16,979 nt of DNA from the IMG/VR virus record IMGVR_UViG_2713896771_000020, positions 1 to 16,979 of that record. One strand, written 5' to 3'. Below the pieces are notes generated by a model, which worked only from the letters and a program-made list of their open reading frames with translations, did not search any database and was not told the origin of the DNA. Every line of letters starts with the position of its first letter. Position 1 is the stretch's first letter. Position numbers and translations under genes: made by a program. Below, piece by piece: positions 7,438 to 14,484 of this stretch. Origin of the DNA: a virus. Taxonomy: Duplodnaviria > Heunggongvirae > Uroviricota > Caudoviricetes.

Positions 7438-7710
7438 TTAGCTGTCCTGGTAATTTCGCCATATTTCATCACCAGCACCATCCATACCCATTTCGGCATA
7501 AGTGCGATCGACCGCCTTTTTCAGGTCTCCGTAATTATCCGGCGGCTCCGGTGGCCTCTGTGCCTTCCTGGAACATTCCAGCCGTCGCATCGTAACCTGA
7601 TGCCGTTCCTTGTCTGTCTCCACCAGCAGCATGACTTCACCCCATCGCGCCGACGCCCTCCGGTAAAAGCCTTTTGCCTCGAGTTCCTCCGCTATGCGGT
7701 CATGTACCAT
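7438..7710 (-). CDS. Hypothetical 90-aa protein
   Basis: ATG at 7708-7710 with GAGGGGG Shine-Dalgarno, just downstream of the ssb stop. The longer ORF-track start overlaps ssb out of frame and is rejected. Confidence 0.5.
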   Translation of the reverse strand: MVHDRIAEELEAKGFYRRASARWGEVMLLVETDKERHQVTMRRLECSRKAQRPPEPPDNYGDLKKAVDRTYAEMGMDGAGDEIWRNYQDS

Positions 7711-8703: not shown

Positions 8704-8897
8704 CCTCTCACTTTTTCGCCTCACTTTTTCAAGCGTCTCACTTCGTCGCAGCTGGGATTTTCGGTTTTTCTATGTGTGTGTTTCATAAGTATTTTTTTAC
8801 CCCTCACTTTTGAGGATGTATACAGGTCGAAAAGTGAGGGAGAGCAGGCTAATTTTGGCCCTCTTTCTATCCACCTCGCTTTTGCTCCTCACTTTTA
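8704..8897. repeat. Iteron array, putative replication origin of the island
   Basis: CTCACTTTT-type repeats at 8707, 8720, 8737 (degenerate), 8803, 8874 (degenerate) and 8888, plus one inverted copy AAAAGTGAG at 8830-8838. Adjacent AT-rich tract 8783-8800. Lies immediately 3' of the replicase gene. Confidence 0.65.
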
Positions 8898-10295
8898 TAG
8901 CGGCGCTACATCATCCCCATCGATACGAATAACCCCATCTTTTTCCAGCTTGTACAGCCAGCGCCGGAAGTTTTTCATTTCATACCCCAGCTTTTTCATG
9001 TCATCACGTAACAGCGGGATCGTGCACTTGTCGCCGTTCTGTGTGCGTGAACGGATGCACCCCCATAAAGCGGTATGGTTTTCCGTCTTGTTCCCGGCCT
9101 CCTCGATGCGCTCCAGTTCAACAGGAGGGCGCGGATCATCCACCACCACCAGCGACGTGATTAATTCACCGTCAGCGTCGGTAAAAAGCTCCACCACGCG
9201 TAAGTCATATGCGGCTTCTTTGAGTTCCTCCGCGTCCTTCATTTTGGTGCATGAGATAACCAGCGCTTCGCTTCCTGCGTCCTCCCTGCGTATCCGGTAT
9301 TCAGCATCCAGCGAAGCACGAAATGCACTGGAACCGCGCGCGCCTTTCGTCTCATCCTTGCCGGAATGGTGAACCACCAGCACCGTGGCCCCTGTGCGTC
9401 GTTTCAGTTCGTCACAACCACGGATAAACGCCCCCATATCACGGGAATCATTTTCATCATTCCCACCAAAGCAACGCGCCAGCGTATCCAGAATAATCAT
9501 GCGAACAGGTTTACCCGTTTCCCGCTCCACCTGACGGGCAGCGATAACCATTTCATCAACATCAAGCGGGGCAGCCGGAAAGATGGGGCGGTTTACCAGA
9601 TACAGATTTTTCACCTGCTCATCGTGCACAACCTCCCAGGCTTTTACACGACGCGGAACACCTATACCGCCTTCACCAACCACATAGAGAACCGCACCAT
9701 GCGCAACCCTGCGGCCTCCCCACTGGCGACCAGTGGCAACATGGCACGCCCACGATCCGGCAAGGAATGATTTATAGGACCCGCTAGCCCCGTATATGCT
9801 GCATAGCGATACCGCCGGAATAATCCCCTTAACCACGTAATCCAGTTGCGTGTCGTATCCGGTAGATCCAACGCTCATCGGTAGCGTGGTTTTTCGCTGG
9901 TGGTTTTTTTCTTCCGCCGGCTCTTTCCCACGCACCCGTTCCAGGTATTCGCGCCAGTTCTCCCGCATATGGCTGTGCATCCCTTCGGGGTAATAATTCG
10001 CATCAGTTACACCCGCCGCCGCCAGCTTGTGCGCAATGGCATTAATATTTGATGGCCTGATGTGGCCTGCCTTGTACAGCCGGACACAATAGCGCCCCTC
10101 GTCGATGATTCTCAGGTCTGCCAGTTCATCCAGTTGATCATCAGCCAGCACAACGGGAGGCACATTATCGCCAGCCAGTCGCCCGTCCTGTTCCTGCCAC
10201 TGTTTCGCATGTGCCCAGGCATCACTACCCGCAAAAATAATGACTTCGGTCATCTTGTCGTAAGGCTGTTTTTTTAAGTTCGGTGCGCTTTTCAT
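8895..10295 (-). CDS. Primase/replicase-type replication initiator with RecA-like (RepA/AAA_25-type) ATPase domain
   Basis: 466-aa ORF. P-loop-like YGASGSYKS, Walker B MIILDTL, and VVHHSGKD motif typical of RepA-like helicase loaders. ATGA coupling to the upstream gene. Confidence 0.75.
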   Translation of the reverse strand: MKSAPNLKKQPYDKMTEVIIFAGSDAWAHAKQWQEQDGRLAGDNVPPVVLADDQLDELADLRIIDEGRYCVRLYKAGHIRPSNINAIAHKLAAAGVTDANYYPEGMHSHMRENWREYLERVRGKEPAEEKNHQRKTTLPMSVGSTGYDTQLDYVVKGIIPAVSLCSIYGASGSYKSFLAGSWACHVATGRQWGGRRVAHGAVLYVVGEGGIGVPRRVKAWEVVHDEQVKNLYLVNRPIFPAAPLDVDEMVIAARQVERETGKPVRMIILDTLARCFGGNDENDSRDMGAFIRGCDELKRRTGATVLVVHHSGKDETKGARGSSAFRASLDAEYRIRREDAGSEALVISCTKMKDAEELKEAAYDLRVVELFTDADGELITSLVVVDDPRPPVELERIEEAGNKTENHTALWGCIRSRTQNGDKCTIPLLRDDMKKLGYEMKNFRRWLYKLEKDGVIRIDGDDVAPL

Positions 10296-10591
10296 TTCTT
10301 GCCCCTGAATACGTTAAGCATCTTTTTTATTTCCTGAATATTGGCGCGTGCTTTCTCCCTGCTGGTTGGTTTACTGCGGGGCGCTGCCTGTACCAGAGAA
10401 AAATCACGCCGGAACTGATAAACAGGCATCACGCAGTCATATTCGTAGCCTTCACGGCGGTAGGTAATGCGTCGCTCTTCTACACCTTTAATCGTTACGG
10501 TGCCGCCGTACTGGTCGCGGTAAATATCGCCGCGCGTAAATTTAGGGTGAGTGTTGCCACTGGCAGTTAAGCCAGAATATTTAAGTTTCAT
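10292..10591 (-). CDS. Hypothetical 99-aa protein
   Basis: ATG 10589-10591; intact ORF in the same operon directly upstream of the replicase. Confidence 0.5.
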   Translation of the reverse strand: MKLKYSGLTASGNTHPKFTRGDIYRDQYGGTVTIKGVEERRITYRREGYEYDCVMPVYQFRRDFSLVQAAPRSKPTSREKARANIQEIKKMLNVFRGKK

Positions 10592-10596
10592 TATTT

Positions 10597-10830
10597 TTAT
10601 TCTCCGGTGTGCTGTTCTTTATATCTGTCGTGCAATATATCTATTTCTTGCAGTTCCATTATTACAGGATCAAGAAGCGTTATTAATGCCGTGGCAATTC
10701 TTGATTTTTGTTTGTCGCGTTCATTGTCGCCAAGTGTTTCAAGCCATATGCGCAATATTTCCAGCATGTTTTCACTGTGAGAAAGTGCAAGAAATGCGCG
10801 GTCTATTGTTTGGTGGTAAATATCACGCAT
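10597..10830 (-). CDS. Hypothetical 77-aa protein, AT-rich gene
   Basis: ATG 10828-10830 with GAGGA Shine-Dalgarno. Local GC visibly lower than flanking genes. Confidence 0.5.
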   Translation of the reverse strand: MRDIYHQTIDRAFLALSHSENMLEILRIWLETLGDNERDKQKSRIATALITLLDPVIMELQEIDILHDRYKEQHTGE

Positions 10831-11272
10831 GGCTTACATCCTCAGGAAATTTTCTTCTATAACGCGCCTCTGCCACATATTCCGCATAATCGGCGGCGAT
10901 ATTCAGTACATCAAGCCCCGTTGATTTATATTCTCTCGTGGAAAGTAAGAAAAAAGCCGCTCTAATAAGTTCTGGCATTGACGAAAGCGCATCAGCCGCA
11001 TCATCAGGAACGCCGGAAAATTCCTGTTTCAGGGAATTAAAACGATCATCACGCATAACCCCCCCCCCATTTTCACAATCAGCAACAAGAATATTTTTAG
11101 CGTCATTCAGCGACCGCGTTGCGGTGTATCGGATACATTCCAGGGCGAATAGTGTGTATTCTTCCCTTTCTTCCTTTTGTGCAAGCTCTGCTGTGCATTC
11201 AATATCAATAAGCGCGTGCATCAGCGTAGTGAGTGCGGCGGCGGCTGCGTCCGGTGTGGTTTTATTGCACAT
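10823..11272 (-). CDS. Hypothetical 149-aa protein containing a G10 homopolymer tract
   Basis: ATG 11270-11272 with GGAGGGG Shine-Dalgarno. The coding strand carries GGGGGGGGGG (plus-strand C10 at 11059-11068) encoding ENGGGV. Confidence 0.5.
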   Translation of the reverse strand: MCNKTTPDAAAAALTTLMHALIDIECTAELAQKEEREEYTLFALECIRYTATRSLNDAKNILVADCENGGGVMRDDRFNSLKQEFSGVPDDAADALSSMPELIRAAFFLLSTREYKSTGLDVLNIAADYAEYVAEARYRRKFPEDVSHA

Positions 11273-11492
11273 GTACCCCTCCGCATTTTTTTTCGTTAGA
11301 AATAAGCGTTCTTCTTTCCTGTTCATCGATCAGGAATACGCAGACCTCACCGCTAAGGCGTTTAAGTAAGCCGATGATTGCCCCTGATTCGCTGTCGGTC
11401 ATCATGCCTGGGTAATCCTCTGCCAGTGCGCAAATAACTTCGATTTGGTGGGCGCGTTCTACTGCCTGTTGTAGTGTGATTTCCTGGCTCAT
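11262..11492 (-). CDS. Hypothetical 76-aa acidic protein
   Basis: ATG 11490-11492 overlapping the stop of the upstream gene (ATGA). No recognisable motif. Confidence 0.5.
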   Translation of the reverse strand: MSQEITLQQAVERAHQIEVICALAEDYPGMMTDSESGAIIGLLKRLSGEVCVFLIDEQERRTLISNEKKCGGVHVQ

Positions 11493-11689
11493 AAGCCTAC
11501 CCCCTGACGAATACGGGCAGCGAATACCATCACGCAGCCAGCCGGGGATTGCAGGCGTGCTTCCTGTTCGCTGGTGGCCTCAATGGTAATCACGCGCGGT
11601 TGTGCAGTGCTCAGGGCGATAAAACGCCAAATGTATTTATTCAGGTTGTGCGAGTCCCGCCCTTGCGGGTGTGTGGTATGATTTCTCAT
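11489..11689 (-). CDS. Hypothetical 66-aa protein, first gene of the leftward early operon
   Basis: ATG 11687-11689 with GAGGT Shine-Dalgarno (MRNHTTHPQGRDSHNLNKYIWRF...). The ORF-track 381-aa extension upstream is non-coding promoter sequence. Confidence 0.5.
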   Translation of the reverse strand: MRNHTTHPQGRDSHNLNKYIWRFIALSTAQPRVITIEATSEQEARLQSPAGCVMVFAARIRQGVGL

Positions 11690-11885
11690 AGCTACCTCGA
11701 TACTCTCGTTATCGTTGGTGGTTAGAAGCCCCGTTACTGCTCCTACAGTGCGGGGTTTCGTCGTTTCTGCACCTTGCATTAACAAGGTGTAAGTAACTTT
11801 ATTTATAGGTGGCTTACATGTCAATGCTTTTATGTAAGACTTTTTATGTGTATATTGTCTTACACTTTCATTGAGAGGATTACAG
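11690..11885. promoter_or_regulatory. Divergent promoter/operator switch region
   Basis: Minus-strand promoter: perfect -35 TTGACA (11819-11824), 17-nt spacer, -10 TAAAGT (11796-11801). Plus-strand candidate -10 TATATT (11851-11856). Inverted repeats CTTACAT/ATGTAAG (11814-11820 and 11833-11839), TGTAAGAC/GTCTTACA (11834-11841 and 11858-11865), CACCTTG-N6-CAAGGTG (11770-11789). Confidence 0.6.
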
Positions 11886-12191
11886 ATGGCTACAGGTTCA
11901 AAAAACGCAAAATCACAATCACTGACAGCTCGGATCCCGCATGATGTTATTGAAGGCATGGAATCCGTAAAACTGGACGGTGAAAGCAACGCCGGATTCA
12001 TAGTAACCGCCATGCGCGGTGAAATCGCCCGCCGCCAGGCAGAAGGAAGCGGAGAAAACCTCCTGATTTCTTCGCTCAATGCACTGGCGCAGGTGGAAAA
12101 ACTCGGAATCAAAGCCGCCGAGGAGATCGGGCAGCTCGTCACTGTCGCACGTGAAGAACTCCAGCGCCGCAAGACTAAAGAACCAGAGTAA
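11886..12191 (+). CDS. Small ribbon-helix-helix-like DNA-binding protein, candidate island repressor
   Basis: ATG 11886 with GAGAGGA Shine-Dalgarno. N-terminal beta-strand/helix pattern SLTARIPHDVIEGMESVKLDGESNAGFIVTAMRGEIARRQ resembles Arc/CopG-type folds. Divergent from the early operon. Confidence 0.5.
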   Translation: MATGSKNAKSQSLTARIPHDVIEGMESVKLDGESNAGFIVTAMRGEIARRQAEGSGENLLISSLNALAQVEKLGIKAAEEIGQLVTVAREELQRRKTKEPE

Positions 12192-12248
12192 TCACCATCA
12201 GCGCCGTGGTGTAAGGTATTACGGCGCATTGCTATGCAGGACAACACA

Positions 12249-12422
12249 ATGACCGATAAAGAATTGACCAAAACATTATCACCGGCACGGAAAAGACGGC
12301 GCAGAAAGATAGAGCATGAATCAGAAAGATTCGCGCCATGTGCTTTTGCCCTTGAGCAATTCCTTAAAGAGTACAGGGAAAAGCGCTCATTGCAGGTATG
12401 GCAACGAACTGAACCAGACTGA
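12249..12422 (+). CDS. Hypothetical 57-aa basic protein
   Basis: ATG 12249 with AGGA Shine-Dalgarno 7 nt upstream (MTDKELTKTLSPARKRRRRK...). Second gene of the short plus-strand operon. Confidence 0.4.
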   Translation: MTDKELTKTLSPARKRRRRKIEHESERFAPCAFALEQFLKEYREKRSLQVWQRTEPD

Positions 12423-12517
12423 TTGCATTGCCCACCAGCCTGATAGCGGCTATCATCCCCGTGCTTATGTTTGGGATCACATACACAAACGGCGCAGCGG
12501 GTTATCTGTTCAGAAAG

Positions 12518-12545
12518 GCGGCTCCATTTCGGGGCCGCTTTTTTT
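12518..12545 (+). terminator. Rho-independent terminator of the plus-strand regulator operon
   Basis: 8-bp stem GCGGCTCC/GGGGCCGC with one G-U pair and loop ATTTC, followed by T7. A second AU-rich hairpin CTGAAAAAC/GTTTTTCAG lies at 12550-12579. Confidence 0.7.
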
Positions 12546-12691
12546 ATACCTGAAAAACCCCAATTTTGTTGTTTTTCAGTTTCACCAGGGCGAACGAATC
12601 CCCGCCCACGTTCTGGCGTATATTCAATCTTCATGGTTATGGCTCTGTGTTCAGATGATTGATGTGTGGCGGCTGCGTGCCGCCAGCGTGA

Positions 12692-12880
12692 TTAATGAAC
12701 TGCCTTGCAGCTATCCTTCCAGGCCAGAACCTCGGATAAAGACCAGCCAACGGAACGACCGCCAAGTTTACGACGTGATGGGAATTGTCCGGCCTTTTCC
12801 AGGCGGTAGCGGCATGAGCGGCTAAGGCCTGTTAGCTTTTCGCATTCTTTTTCACGTATAAACCGATCAGTGCTTAACAC
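12692..12880 (-). CDS. alpA: AlpA-family (excisionase-like) transcriptional regulator
   Basis: 62-aa protein; core LTGLSRSCRYRLEKAGQFPSRRKLGGRSVGWSLSEVLAWKDS matches the AlpA/Xis-like winged-helix signature. GTG start with GGGGG Shine-Dalgarno. Immediately downstream of int in the same orientation. Confidence 0.85.
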   Translation of the reverse strand: MLSTDRFIREKECEKLTGLSRSCRYRLEKAGQFPSRRKLGGRSVGWSLSEVLAWKDSCKAVH

Positions 12881-13163
12881 TATTGCCCCCTTTCGTTTCT
12901 TAAAGAGTTATTTCGTGTTCTATTGCGTTGGGATGTGTCTGATTGTGTCAGGATGATTCAGAGTTGGCAAATGTTGAGGCCGTATGGTTTACAGAAAGAG
13001 GAATAATCAGGATAAAATCATTTAAATTCATGTTAATACAAAGGCATAAAATATTGTTTCATGCCTTTTTTCTCGCTATTTAAAGAGTGATTCGCTAGTG
13101 TATAAAAAACCAGTAACACATTAAAAATCAGCTACTTATAAATCTGTACACTTTTTCGCCTCT

Positions 13164-13208
13164 TGTTCGTAGTTGTTCCGCATTGTTGCTCATTGTTGCA
13201 CGTTGTAT
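13164..13208 (+). repeat. Four to five direct repeats TTGTT(C/G) at 10-bp spacing
   Basis: TTGTTC at 13164 and 13174, TTGTTG at 13184 and 13194, degenerate TTGTAT at 13203. Same motif and phasing as the arrays at 7011-7036 and 14539-14574. Confidence 0.85.
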
Positions 13209-13221
13209 CTGTTCGCATATC

Positions 13222-13237
13222 CAGTATGCGCATACTG
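13222..13237. promoter_or_regulatory. Perfect 16-bp palindrome CAGTATGCGCATACTG
   Basis: Exact dyad symmetry directly adjacent to the repeat array, in the int-alpA intergenic region. No flanking U-run, so a protein site is more likely than a terminator. Confidence 0.5.
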
Positions 13238-13254
13238 AAAAAATACGAAAAAAA

Positions 13255-14484
13255 TTATTTTCTTCTGGCTACTGGTAGCGTGGTTACGTTTTCATGTGTT
13301 CCCGCCAGTATCCCTAACCGCTCCATCCACATATCCAGCACATTGCGTTTAGCATCCAGATAACGGGAATGATTATAAACTCGCTGCATTCCTGGCATCT
13401 GGTGGCCTGTAAGCTGCTCCACGACATGCGGATCAACGCCTAAATCGTTCAGCATGGTTGTAAAGGTGCGCCGGATGTCATGCAGTGACCAGTGAGGATG
13501 ATTAAGCCTCCTGTGCGCTAATCTTCCATACTGCGATACGCTGGCCTCCTGTTTCACTTCCCCCAGCAATAAGCCCGTGTGCCTGTTCTGCTCCACCAGC
13601 TGCGTGACGAACGGCAGGATCGCTTCCGGTATGGGCCGGAATATTGCGACCTTCGTTTTGCTGTGCTCCTTCGGAACGGTCCATAGCATTTCCGTAAAAT
13701 CCCACTCCCCGATCTCCGATAGCCTCAGTTCTACCGTCCTGGCTCCGAAGACAATCAGGAGGCGGATTAACGCGACGTAGTAAGGGGAAAATATTTTTTT
13801 GTCCAGTGCCTGCAATAATTCGCCAAGTTCTTTGTTACTTAAGACACGTTCGCTTATATCCGGTTTTTTCCCAACGTCCGCCACGTTCAGATCGTCCAGA
13901 ACGTTGCTGATTGCATAGCGCCGCCTACGGCAGAACTTAAGCGCCTGTTTGCACGCCTGTAGCACGAATCCGGCAGTAACAGGCGTTCGCTTTGCCACCT
14001 GGTCAAAACAGGCCAGCCAGTGCCGTAGCTCGCATTTATCCAGCGGCATAGCACCAATCTGCTGTATTACGTGATTATTAAGTCGCCTTTTCAGGGCGAT
14101 ATAATCCACGCGGTTTTCCTTTACGTAATACTCAAGCCAGTAGGTGAGCGCATCGCCAACCGTTACGGGCTTTAACGCTTCCTGTACGGTGTAATTCATC
14201 TCATGACGTGGATTTTTCCCCTCAGCCAGCCATGTGCGACACTGTGCGGCTTTTTCCCTGGCTGCTTTCAGGCTCAGATCAGGATAACTTCCCAGCTTAA
14301 TGCGTTCGGGTCGTGTCTCCCTTCCCGTTCCGGCCCTGTATGTGAAATACCAGGTCAATTTCCCTGATGTTAAATATTTCACGCTCAGGTTTCCGCCATC
14401 ACTATAAAACGTGTTTTTCTCCGCTGGCTTACCATGAAGTTTCCTTAGCAAGGTATCGCTCAGTTTGTTCATTGCTCTGCTCAC
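13255..14484 (-). CDS. int: Tyrosine site-specific integrase (P4-like family)
   Basis: 409-aa ORF; C-terminal catalytic region with HDIRRTF ... LTGHQ ... RVYNHSRY (R, H-x-x-R, Y). GTG start 14482-14484 with AGAGGGGG Shine-Dalgarno; alternative ATG at 14472. Adjacent to the insertion junction. Confidence 0.9.
   Translation of the reverse strand: MSRAMNKLSDTLLRKLHGKPAEKNTFYSDGGNLSVKYLTSGKLTWYFTYRAGTGRETRPERIKLGSYPDLSLKAAREKAAQCRTWLAEGKNPRHEMNYTVQEALKPVTVGDALTYWLEYYVKENRVDYIALKRRLNNHVIQQIGAMPLDKCELRHWLACFDQVAKRTPVTAGFVLQACKQALKFCRRRRYAISNVLDDLNVADVGKKPDISERVLSNKELGELLQALDKKIFSPYYVALIRLLIVFGARTVELRLSEIGEWDFTEMLWTVPKEHSKTKVAIFRPIPEAILPFVTQLVEQNRHTGLLLGEVKQEASVSQYGRLAHRRLNHPHWSLHDIRRTFTTMLNDLGVDPHVVEQLTGHQMPGMQRVYNHSRYLDAKRNVLDMWMERLGILAGTHENVTTLPVARRK

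What the first reader, a model, noticed from the sequence alone, without database searches (positions are those of the whole stretch)
10292..11689. Five-gene early operon of small unrecognised proteins between the switch and the replicase
Five tightly coupled ORFs of 66-149 aa show no motifs I can assign. One is conspicuously AT-rich (10597-10830). This is where satellites typically encode derepression, helper-sensing or interference functions, so they are the best candidates for novel biology in the window.
Basis: inference. Interest (0 to 1): 0.45.

Follow-up and report, generated by a model that had tools for sequence, protein, structure and literature searches.

The report
Phage-satellite early operon ending in RgdR
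These five small genes are the early operon of a phage satellite (a capsid-forming PICI) that is common in E. coli: the first gene is a relative of the P4 Kil / Icd cell-division inhibitor, the last is the already published virulence regulator RgdR, and the three in between are shuffled, satellite-only genes whose function is still unknown.

Summary
The ORFs are real, at the stated coordinates and tightly coupled, and 10597-10830 is AT-rich (39% GC). They are not all unrecognised.

- **Element:** the window is an E. coli capsid-forming PICI inserted in tqsA, 99.5% identical to islands in sequenced strains.
- **g1 (66 aa):** an Icd-like protein in the same PHROG as P4 Kil. It lies in frame inside a 381-codon ORF that opens right after the alpA stop.
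- **g5 (99 aa):** DUF4222 with RGD at residues 20-22, an orthologue of RgdR. RgdR is a published activator of LEE1/type III secretion and repressor of motility, reported in all analysed E. coli PICIs.
- **g2, g3, g4:** acidic, helical proteins found almost only in Escherichia/Shigella satellites, with no informative homologue or fold match.
- **g3:** two small genes fused through a G10 tract; the tract varies from G6 to G11 among strains.
- **Layout:** across 73 related loci it is Icd-like, then a variable middle (16 arrangements), then a g4-family gene, rgdR and a replicase. This parallels the P4 left operon.

I found no homology to P4 epsilon or to known defence systems. The published prototype EcCIEDL933 does not interfere with its helper. 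Verdict: a known kind of operon, with three uncharacterised accessory genes. Interest is low to moderate.

The parts
12692..12880 (-). alpA (62 aa), the master activator of Gram-negative PICIs. It lies upstream of the operon on the same strand.
   Evidence: Pfam Phage_AlpA 5e-18. 47% identical to P4 Vis over 53 aa. Role from Fillol-Salom 2018.
11489..12634 (-). 381-codon ORF in frame with g1 and sharing its stop codon. The frame is open from the alpA stop codon (12692-12694) onward. This resembles the P4 eta/kil nested-gene arrangement.
   Evidence: 0 in-frame stops in 1002 nt, against 22 and 25 in the other two frames; 0 of 2000 dinucleotide shuffles reach 0. The same holds in L001-L005 despite non-homologous middle parts. 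GenBank holds it as 'Icd-like protein'. There is no third-position bias in its N-terminal part and no Pfam domain.
11886..12191 (+). ylcI/ynfO-family gene (101 aa), divergent from the operon and lying antisense inside the long ORF. It is a candidate regulator of the switch.
   Evidence: NCBIfam YlcI_YnfO_N 6.5e-20. RefSeq annotation of the 99.5% identical locus.
12518..12545 (+). Intrinsic terminator of the plus-strand (ylcI) unit. The same hairpin is weaker on the minus strand, where it lies inside the long ORF downstream of alpA.
   Evidence: Plus strand: -21.7 kcal/mol, z = -4.9, followed by U7. Minus strand: -12.3 kcal/mol.
11796..11824 (-). Sigma70-like promoter (TTGACA-17-TAAAGT, 10 of 12 matches) for the five-gene operon. 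It is internal to the long ORF and flanked by TGTAAGAC/GTCTTACA palindromic motifs.
   Evidence: Consensus scan, sequence, inverted repeat I10. This is a consensus match only and has not been shown to be active.
11670..11792 (-). Structured leader RNA upstream of g1.
   Evidence: MFE -36.6 kcal/mol, z = -4.39, 0 of 200 shuffles fold as well.
11489..11689 (-). g1: Icd-like / P4 Kil-like small basic protein (66 aa).
   Evidence: NCBIfam NF033153 2.4e-19, 69 bits against a cutoff of 25. phrog_1743 1.8e-22; the C-terminal 65 aa of the P4 cI/eta ORF hit the same PHROG at 7.5e-21.
11262..11492 (-). g2: acidic 76-aa protein of unknown function. Optional member of the cassette.
   Evidence: phrog_1478 1.2e-27. 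Only 22 clusters, all E. coli. Present in 18 of 73 related loci.
10823..11272 (-). g3: acidic 149-aa protein that fuses two small genes, g3a (11057-11272) and g3b (10823-11056).
   Evidence: phrog_2512; the halves match phrog_5146 and phrog_24341. The gene is split in Nissle 1917. Stand-alone 72-77-aa homologues of each half exist. The model has two helical halves joined by a disordered linker, pLDDT 64.
11059..11068 (-). G10 homopolymer (C10 on the plus strand) at the g3a/g3b junction. Its length decides whether the two halves are fused or split.
   Evidence: Lengths G6-G11 across 33 occurrences in related loci.
10597..10830 (-). g4: AT-rich, acidic 77-aa protein of unknown function. A member of its family nearly always sits immediately upstream of rgdR.
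   Evidence: phrog_2196 5.5e-42. GC 39.3%. A g4-family gene precedes rgdR in 70 of 73 loci.
10292..10591 (-). g5: rgdR (99 aa, DUF4222, RGD at residues 20-22, K35).
   Evidence: Pfam DUF4222 3e-24. 86% identical to the O157:H7 allele, with residues 20-68 nearly invariant. Published function.
8895..10295 (-). Replicase (RepA-family helicase, AAA_25), coupled to rgdR by an ATGA overlap.
   Evidence: Pfam AAA_25 2.4e-43, RefSeq name. Its N-terminal ~130 aa are shared with primase-type PICI replicases.

Best explanation
The region is the early operon (the 'dynamic/Bro zone') of a capsid-forming PICI of the EcCIEDL933 / O-island 51 family. It is built like the left operon of satellite phage P4: alpA (vis), then a long ORF with a nested Kil/Icd-like gene, then small accessory genes, then the replicase.

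**Transcription (inferred).** One start would be a sigma70-like promoter at 11824-11796 that lies inside the long ORF. The other would be read-through from the helper-induced, AlpA-autoactivated alpA promoter. In that second mode, translation of the long ORF across the hairpin at 12518-12545 could suppress termination, as eta translation does in P4.

**Products.**
- g1 is a small basic Kil/Icd-like protein. By family it is expected to arrest host division or growth when the island is induced.
- g5 is RgdR, a small basic protein with a beta-rich core and a basic C-terminal helix. It binds DNA non-specifically. In EHEC it activates LEE1/ler and represses motility (shown for the orthologue).
- rgdR is constantly placed next to, and translationally coupled with, four different replicase types. 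From this I infer that its native job is in the satellite's own replication or transcription, and that LEE control is a side effect.
- g2, g3a-g3b and g4 are acidic helical proteins restricted to satellites. The g4 family is near-constant; the others are shuffled accessory genes. Their most likely mode of action is binding and modulating host, helper or defence proteins. Their targets are unknown.
For: **Element identity.**
- int, alpA, the replicase and an HK97-type capsid/protease/portal/connector/HNH/TerS/TerL module lie on one strand, inserted in tqsA.
- The DNA is 99.5% identical to annotated islands, and some part of the cassette is present in 1847 of 5426 complete E. coli genomes.
- The cf-PICI prototype and its AlpA dependence are published.

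**g1.** NCBIfam Icd-like hit above cutoff. It shares phrog_1743 with the Kil part of the P4 cI/eta ORF.

**Long nested ORF.** Zero stops in 1002 nt against 22 and 25 in the other frames; 0 of 2000 shuffles reach zero. The frame is open from the alpA stop in the window and in L001, L003 and L005. In L002 and L004 it opens inside the 3' end of alpA, 54 and 9 nt before its stop. The P4 eta/kil logic is summarised.

**g5.** DUF4222 hit. The RGD motif and K35 are kept and residues 20-68 are nearly invariant. [quoted passage not shown] Deleting rgdR changes type III secretion without any helper induction, which fits a constitutive promoter.

**Architecture.** Of 80 IMG/VR loci, 73 have an Icd-like gene upstream of rgdR. 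In 70 of those 73, a g4-family gene sits immediately before rgdR. The middle shows 16 arrangements. The adjacent replicase may be RepA-, primase-, DUF5906- or DUF927-type.

**Satellite restriction.** The cassette DNA has no match in 50,697 phage records. tblastn of g1 and g5 finds only marginal hits there.
Against: - No function was measured here. The roles given to g1, g2-g4 and the 'native' role of RgdR are inferences.
- The promoter is only a consensus match (6 found against 5.5 expected in the region).
- The N-terminal part of the long ORF shows no third-codon-position bias (13/24/21) and has no Pfam domain, whereas P4 Eta carries Phage_ASH.
- The long ORF is not universal. Only 22 of 36 unique related loci with alpA keep it open from about the alpA stop.
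- The P4-type immunity RNAs (Rfam C4/isrK) are not detectable, even at E <= 10.
Confidence: 0.7

Rival explanations
1. The operon, or its Icd-like gene together with the linked small genes and the replicase, works as a phage-triggered growth-arrest (abortive infection / superinfection exclusion) module. An incoming phage protein would switch the operon on, and the Icd-like product would stop the cell.
For: Silas et al. studied E. coli ECOR61. There, an Icd-like gene plus two adjacent small hypothetical genes were the transposon suppressors of cell death triggered by phage orf24. Six linked genes including a primase were needed to reconstitute the effect, and removing the Icd-like gene abolished it. 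In ECOR15, a P4-like alpA / Icd-like / hypothetical / primase block was hit in the Abc1-triggered screen. AlpA over-expression in EcCICFT073 reduces viability.
Against: The ECOR61 genes have different sizes (122, 62 and 64 aa). I could not compare their sequences with g1-g4. No PADLOC defence model matches. In EcCICFT073 the viability loss was attributed to uncontrolled replication. EcCIEDL933 does not reduce plaquing of its helpers.
Confidence: 0.2
2. The small proteins would act on the helper phage by derepressing it, sensing it or interfering with it, as P4 epsilon and the SaPI interference proteins do.
For: Position: in P4 the helper-derepression gene epsilon lies between the Kil/eta ORF and the primase. 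g2-g4 are small, acidic, variable and satellite-specific, as protein-binding modulators often are. The same cassette sits in classical PICIs of the type carried by Nissle 1917. Gram-negative PICIs are reported to interfere severely with their helpers.
Against: There is no homology to epsilon, ORF151 or ORF106; they fall in different PHROGs and pairwise E-values are above 0.01 in a five-sequence database. EcCIEDL933 does not affect helper titre or plaques. PICI induction is driven by helper-induced alpA, not by derepression of the helper. From my own knowledge, not checked here: interference in classical E. coli PICIs has been assigned to the packaging module.
Confidence: 0.12
3. g2, g3 and g4 are counter-defence (anti-restriction or anti-Abi type) proteins made early after the satellite enters a new host.
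For: They are small, acidic and helical, and sit at the 5' end of the first operon expressed. They occur in 16 shuffled arrangements with mosaic alleles (74-95% identity), typical of fast-evolving accessory regions. cf-PICIs are reported to cross species and genera (abstract).
Against: No sequence or fold similarity to any characterised protein. No anti-defence HMM library was available to test. The families are almost confined to Escherichia/Shigella.
Confidence: 0.15
4. Some or all of the small ORFs are not real genes but chance or decaying ORFs in a cryptic prophage remnant.
For: O-island 51 was long annotated as a cryptic prophage. For g2, g3b and g4, the loci I held were too similar for a codon-position test. 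A G-tract fuses or splits g3.
Against: Translational coupling and ribosome-binding sites. PHROG matches at 1e-27 to 1e-67. Diverged homologues exist: a g4-like protein at 37% identity and g3 halves at 41-65%. Third-position bias in g1, g3a and g5. The island family is mobile and functional.
Confidence: 0.03

Closest known systems
EcCIEDL933 / O-island 51 (CP-933C) of E. coli O157:H7, the prototype capsid-forming PICI, and classical PICIs such as EcCICFT073
   Same: Same gene order: int, alpA, Icd-like, small genes, rgdR, replicase, SSB, PerC, then an HK97-type packaging module. The O157:H7 locus L003 shares g3b (100% aa), g4 (96%), rgdR (86%) and the replicase N-terminus (99%). The Nissle 1917 classical PICI carries the same cassette at 93% nt identity.
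   Different: The window island sits in tqsA, whereas L003 is next to roxA. Its g1 allele is only 51% identical to the O157 allele. O157 has a different second gene (70 aa) and no detectable ylcI. g3 is fused in the window but split in Nissle.
RgdR (ECs1581), the prophage-encoded regulator of type III secretion (Flockhart et al., Mol Microbiol 2011/12)
   Same: 99 aa, pI about 10, DUF4222, RGD at residues 20-22, K35, conserved core 20-68, and the same position upstream of the island replicase.
   Different: 14 of 99 residues differ from the O157 allele, mostly in the C-terminal helix. Activity of this allele was not tested, and whether the host strain carries LEE is unknown.
Left (alpha) operon of satellite phage P4: vis, eta/kil (with cI RNA), epsilon, ORF151, ORF106, alpha
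   Same: An AlpA/Vis homologue comes first. The frame then opens directly after its stop and ends in a Kil/Icd-like domain of 65-66 aa. Several small ORFs follow, then the replicase, all on one strand. A promoter internal to the long ORF is known in P4 and predicted here.
   Different: The middle genes are not homologous. P4 Eta has a Phage_ASH domain, whereas the PICI long ORF has none and carries an antisense ylcI gene. No C4/isrK-type immunity RNA is detectable. There is no sid/delta/psu module, because this island makes its own capsids.
[quoted passage not shown]
   Same: g1 matches the family model above its cutoff.
   Different: Membership rests on sequence only. tblastn of g1 against 50,697 phage records finds one satellite-sized record and nothing else at E <= 1e-3. 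Division inhibition was not tested.
ECOR61 and ECOR15 satellite-encoded cell-death loci (Silas et al., bioRxiv 2023)
   Same: An Icd-like gene with an N-terminal extension, adjacent small hypothetical genes and a primase act together.
   Different: The trigger (orf24 or Abc1) and any defence phenotype are unknown for this island.

Membership tests
Gram-negative PICI, capsid-forming subtype (cf-PICI) | int, alpA and a replicase (pri/rep) in one orientation at one end of a ~15-kb island inserted at a chromosomal site | tested here: met
   int 13255-14484, alpA 12692-12880 and the replicase 8895-10295 are all on the minus strand, and the island interrupts tqsA.
Gram-negative PICI, capsid-forming subtype (cf-PICI) | Own packaging module: major capsid, prohead protease, portal, head-tail connectors, TerS and TerL, with no tail or lysis genes | tested here: met
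   RefSeq annotation of the 99.5% identical locus L001 lists all of these and no tail genes. Matching ORFs are present in the window.
Gram-negative PICI, capsid-forming subtype (cf-PICI) | Induction and transfer by a helper phage through alpA, using only helper tails | not testable with these tools
   Shown for EcCIEDL933 with helpers HK106/HK446, not for this island.
RgdR / DUF4222 | Match to Pfam DUF4222 above the gathering score | tested here: met
   84.8 bits against a cutoff of 27, E = 3e-24, residues 16-68.
RgdR / DUF4222 | 99-aa basic protein with RGD at residues 20-22 and the conserved core 20-68 | tested here: met
   Sequence and pI 10.1; alignment with O157, Nissle, Shigella and E. 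albertii alleles; criteria.
RgdR / DUF4222 | Activates LEE1/ler and type III secretion, represses motility, binds DNA non-specifically | not testable with these tools
   Shown for ECs1581 and C1493.
Icd-like / P4 Kil | Match to NCBIfam NF033153 above cutoff, and the same profile family as P4 Kil | tested here: met
   69.1 bits against a cutoff of 25. phrog_1743: g1 at 1.8e-22, P4 Kil region at 7.5e-21.
Icd-like / P4 Kil | Nested in frame at the 3' end of a longer ORF that starts next to the alpA/vis stop | tested here: met
   It holds in 22 of 36 related loci.
Icd-like / P4 Kil | Inhibits cell division or kills the host when expressed | not testable with these tools
   Family annotation only. 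P4 Kil 'functions in cell killing'.
P4-type RNA immunity (CI RNA / seqA; Rfam C4 and isrK) | C4- or isrK-like RNA element within or upstream of the Kil/eta ORF | tested here: not met
   No hit at E <= 1 over 10000-13400. Neither family is among the 10 weak hits at E <= 10 over 11450-12900.
P4 epsilon (helper derepression protein) | Sequence or profile homology to epsilon | tested here: not met
   Epsilon falls in phrog_10016/3688, and none of g1-g5 does. Pairwise comparisons are not significant.
Known anti-phage defence systems (PADLOC-DB 2.0) | Match to any defence-system protein model | tested here: not met
   0 families for all eight proteins at E <= 0.1.

The most novel reading that the evidence does not exclude
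Three linked readings remain open.
1. The shuffled acidic mini-proteins (g2, g3a/g3b, g4) could be early-expressed inhibitors of host defence or of helper/host proteins.
2. The whole block from the Icd-like gene through the small genes to the replicase could double as a phage-triggered growth-arrest module of the ECOR61 type.
3. RgdR's native role could be control of satellite replication or transcription, so that its well-known activation of the LEE virulence island would be a by-product of satellite biology.
Probability: 0.2. Interest if true: 0.55.

Novelty: already known. Interest (0 to 1): 0.25.

Why it matters
Some part of this cassette is present in about a third of complete E. coli genomes (1847 of 5426). 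It sits in a satellite family that moves between strains. One of its genes (rgdR) already links satellite carriage to expression of the LEE virulence island in EHEC. The other genes are expressed from the same operon, yet no one has assigned them a role in the satellite life cycle.

Three experiments are therefore cheap and informative:
- Deleting g1-g5 one at a time in the existing EcCIEDL933/HK106 system.
- Testing whether translation of the long Icd-frame ORF controls read-through from alpA.
- Asking what RgdR does for the island itself.

The outcome would refine a known system rather than reveal a new kind of one.

Tried and rejected
1. **Rfam.** Nothing at E <= 1 over 10000-13400, and no C4 or isrK even at E <= 10 over 11450-12900. 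I dropped a P4/P1-type immunity RNA.
2. **PADLOC.** No defence model matched.
3. **PDB sequence search.** Nothing for g3 or g5.
4. **Structure prediction and fold search.**
   - The g3 model (pLDDT 64) had no Foldseek PDB hit below E = 2.
   - The matches were generic small beta-barrels (L21, EF-P domain I, Tudor, SH3, CarD, PilZ). I do not claim a fold.
   - The afdb50 library was unavailable.
5. **Deep homology.** The two big protein searches returned only near-identical E. coli sequences for g2, g3 and g4. The search of 1.84 billion representatives found only 43 relatives of g3, many of them fragments.
6. **Paralogy among g2, g3a, g3b and g4.** All are about 75 aa, and g3b and g4 both start MRD, but no comparison was significant.
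7. **Homology of g2-g5 to P4 epsilon, ORF151 or ORF106.** None.
8. **Plus-strand ORFs at 12234-12422 and 12316-12825.**
   - 12234-12422 (62 aa) matches phrog_21027.
   - Neither ORF shows third-position bias, and the 12234 start codon itself varies.
   - I do not treat either as a gene.
9. **Universality of the long Icd-frame ORF.** My first six loci all had it, but the wider sample shows it in 22 of 36. I report it as lineage-typical, not universal.
10. **Genome-contig scan with g5.** It gave only two loci because it relies on exact peptide words. I could not establish distribution beyond Escherichia/Shigella.
11. **PHROG label 'transcriptional repressor' for the g1 families.**
   - The P4 record in the phage collection labels its cI ORF 'transcriptional repressor'.
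   - I suspect the PHROG name derives from that kind of P4 cI annotation.
   - The P4 immunity factor is an RNA, so I did not adopt the label.

Full report
**Observation.** The five ORFs exist as described, on the minus strand.

| Gene | Coordinates | Length |
|---|---|---|
| g1 | 11489-11689 | 66 aa |
| g2 | 11262-11492 | 76 aa |
| g3 | 10823-11272 | 149 aa |
| g4 | 10597-10830 | 77 aa |
| g5 | 10292-10591 | 99 aa |

They are chained by ATGA, 11-nt and 8-nt overlaps and one 5-nt gap. g5 overlaps the start of a 466-aa replicase by ATGA. g4 has 39.3% GC, against 47-55% for its neighbours. All five match PHROG families at E = 1e-27 to 1e-67. Their exact sequences occur on hundreds to a thousand or more public contigs. 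Third-codon-position enrichment of variable sites is seen in g1, g3a and g5. g2, g3b and g4 were too conserved among my comparison loci to test.

**What the element is.** The window carries a tyrosine integrase, alpA, a RepA-type helicase, SSB, a PerC-family regulator and an HK97-type capsid/protease/portal/connector/HNH/TerS/TerL module. All lie on one strand, inserted in tqsA. The region is 99.5% identical to islands in sequenced E. coli. Some part of the five-gene cassette matches 1847 of 5426 complete E. coli genomes, and 260 genomes cover at least 80% of it. It has no DNA match in 50,697 phage records.

This is the capsid-forming PICI type whose prototype is EcCIEDL933. [quoted passage not shown] In Gram-negative PICIs, AlpA activates the downstream island genes and its own promoter, and helper phages switch alpA on.

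**g5 is RgdR.** g5 matches Pfam DUF4222 (3e-24). It is 99 aa with pI 10.1 and has RGD at residues 20-22 and K35. These are the published features of RgdR (ECs1581) from O-island 51 / CP-933C of O157:H7.

Published findings on RgdR:
- It activates the LEE1 promoter and type III secretion and represses motility.
- It binds DNA without sequence specificity in EMSA.
- It has orthologues in CFT073 (C1493) and ED1a (ECED1_1787, naturally inactive through R20C).
- Deleting rgdR lowers secretion in uninduced cells.

[quoted passage not shown] The window allele is 86% identical to the O157:H7 allele. Residues 20-68 are almost invariant, and the differences cluster in the C-terminal helix.

[quoted passage not shown] The C-terminal 65 residues of the P4 'cI gene product' ORF, which is the Kil part of eta, hit the same PHROG at 7.5e-21.

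The reading frame of g1 is open for 400 codons, starting immediately after the alpA stop codon; the first ATG gives 381 aa.
- Upstream of the g1 ATG there are 0 stops in 1002 nt in this frame, against 22 and 25 in the other two frames.
- None of 2000 dinucleotide shuffles reached zero.
- The same holds in five relatives whose middle segments are not homologous.
- GenBank holds this 381-aa ORF as an 'Icd-like protein'.

This mirrors P4. There, eta opens right after vis, is translationally coupled to it, contains an internal constitutive promoter, and ends in Kil. Translation of eta prevents termination, so the late promoter reads through.

Four caveats apply:
- The N-terminal part shows no third-position bias (13/24/21).
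- It has no Pfam domain, whereas P4 Eta has Phage_ASH.
- C4/isrK RNAs are not detectable.
- In a wider sample, only 22 of 36 unique loci keep the frame open from about the alpA stop.

**The regulatory surroundings.** Four features stand out.
- A sigma70-like promoter (TTGACA-17-TAAAGT, 10 of 12 matches) lies at 11824-11796 on the operon strand, inside the long ORF. TGTAAGAC/GTCTTACA motifs flank it.
- The 123-nt leader is strongly structured (z = -4.4).
- A ylcI/ynfO-family gene (11886-12191) is transcribed divergently (NCBIfam 6.5e-20). Its unit ends at a strong intrinsic terminator at 12518-12545 (-21.7 kcal/mol followed by U7).
- A stretch at about 12194-12472 is shared at 90-98% identity by six of the seven relatives compared; it is not detected in E. 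albertii (L007). Its flanks are highly diverged.

**g2, g3 and g4.** These are acidic (pI 4.6-5.1) and lack Pfam, NCBIfam, PADLOC or PDB matches. They belong to PHROGs of unknown function. Large protein searches return almost only E. coli/Shigella sequences. A full scan of 1.84 billion representatives finds only 43 relatives of g3.

g3 is a fusion of two genes:
- Its halves match separate PHROGs.
- Nissle 1917 has two 73-aa genes at this position.
- The only difference at the junction is G10 in the window against G8 in Nissle.
- Stand-alone homologues of each half exist.
- Across related loci the tract is G6 (1), G7 (9), G8 (14), G9 (5), G10 (3) and G11 (1).

The g3 model shows two helical halves joined by a disordered linker at the G tract (pLDDT 64), with no fold match. 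The four ~75-aa units are not detectably paralogous.

**Architecture across relatives.** In annotated E. coli loci the order is always alpA, Icd-like, one to five small genes, DUF4222, then a replicase. The replicase may be RepA-, primase-, DUF5906- or DUF927-type. The first ~130 residues of the replicase are conserved at 56-63% between the RepA and primase types.

Of 80 IMG/VR loci found with g5, 73 have an Icd-like gene upstream. In 70 of those, a g4-family gene (g4 or a 37%-identical variant) sits immediately before rgdR. The middle shows 16 distinct arrangements. The Icd-like gene, the g4 family and rgdR therefore behave as the core. g2, g3a, g3b and two other small genes behave as shuffled accessories. 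This matches the 'dynamic zone' between the integration and replication zones described for Gram-negative PICIs.

**Mechanism, with shown and inferred steps.**
- *Shown by sequence or literature:* the identity of the element; the family membership of g1 and g5; the phenotypes of RgdR orthologues; AlpA-dependent activation of PICI genes; the maintained long ORF.
- *Inferred:* the promoter at 11824-11796 gives basal expression, consistent with the rgdR phenotype in uninduced cells. Helper-induced alpA transcription reads through when the long ORF is translated. g1 arrests division or growth on induction. RgdR's primary role concerns the island's replication or transcription. g2-g4 act by binding other proteins.

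**Rivals.** An abortive-infection role is suggested by the ECOR61 and ECOR15 loci. There, Icd-like genes, adjacent small genes and a primase are needed for phage-protein-triggered cell death. I could not compare those sequences, no defence model matches, and EcCIEDL933 does not block its helpers.

They have no homology support, and for this island family there is published evidence against interference. A counter-defence role for g2-g4 fits their properties but is untested. Non-coding ORFs are very unlikely.

**Novelty and score.** The island family, the operon layout, RgdR and the Icd-like family are all published or routinely annotated, and the exact proteins are common in databases. What remains open is the function of three small accessory genes and the satellite-side role of RgdR and the long ORF. 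I rate the finding as already known, with interest about 0.25.

Noticed in passing
window 11489-12691 (minus strand): The frame of the Icd-like gene is free of stop codons for 400 codons, starting right after the alpA stop. It runs through the promoter region and antisense through ylcI. The other two frames have 22 and 25 stops, and 0 of 2000 shuffles match zero. The frame stays open in five relatives with non-homologous middle parts, but in only 22 of 36 loci of a wider sample. This resembles the P4 eta/kil nested genes.
   Followed up: yes
window ~12194-12530: A stretch between alpA and ylcI is 90-98% identical in six of the seven relatives compared (not detected in E. albertii), although the flanking alpA and ylcI alleles are highly diverged. 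It shows no codon-position bias in any frame and has no Rfam match. Its role (DNA site, RNA element or part of the long ORF) is unexplained.
   Followed up: partly
window 11059-11068: A G10 tract inside g3 sets whether two small genes are fused (G7, G10) or separate (G8, G9, G11). Lengths G6-G11 occur among related loci. The fused state seen in the window is the minority (12 of 33).
   Followed up: yes
window 12518-12545 (plus strand) and 11886-12191: A strong intrinsic terminator (-21.7 kcal/mol followed by U7) ends the divergent ylcI/ynfO-family transcription unit about 330 nt after the gene. The consensus terminator scan did not list it.
   Followed up: partly
window 11780-11870: Repeated TGTAAGAC / GTCTTACA / TGTAAGCC / ACTTACAC motifs surround the sigma70-like promoter between ylcI and the Icd-like gene. 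They are possible operator sites for the YlcI-family protein or AlpA.
   Followed up: no
window 9873-10295 (replicase residues 1-141): The N-terminal ~130 residues of the RepA-type replicase are 56-63% identical to the N-termini of the 'DNA primase family' replicases of other PICIs. A shared N-terminal domain therefore always follows rgdR, whichever catalytic part comes next.
   Followed up: partly
protein P0390 (Shigella flexneri, 583 aa), cluster of window 10292-10591: A protein annotated 'DNA primase' clusters at 90% identity with RgdR. It is presumably an RgdR-replicase fusion across the ATGA overlap, either natural or a frameshift artefact.
   Followed up: no
window ~7438-7710 (minus strand): A PerC-family regulator gene lies downstream of the replicase and SSB genes (by RefSeq annotation of the 99.5% identical locus). 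Some PICI PerC homologues are reported to activate LEE, so the island may carry two regulators that act on LEE.
   Followed up: no
L008 (phage P4) 8168-8584: The P4 record in the phage collection labels the cI ORF a 'transcriptional repressor', although the P4 immunity factor is an RNA. This may be the origin of the 'transcriptional repressor' label on the PHROG families that g1 matches.
   Followed up: partly
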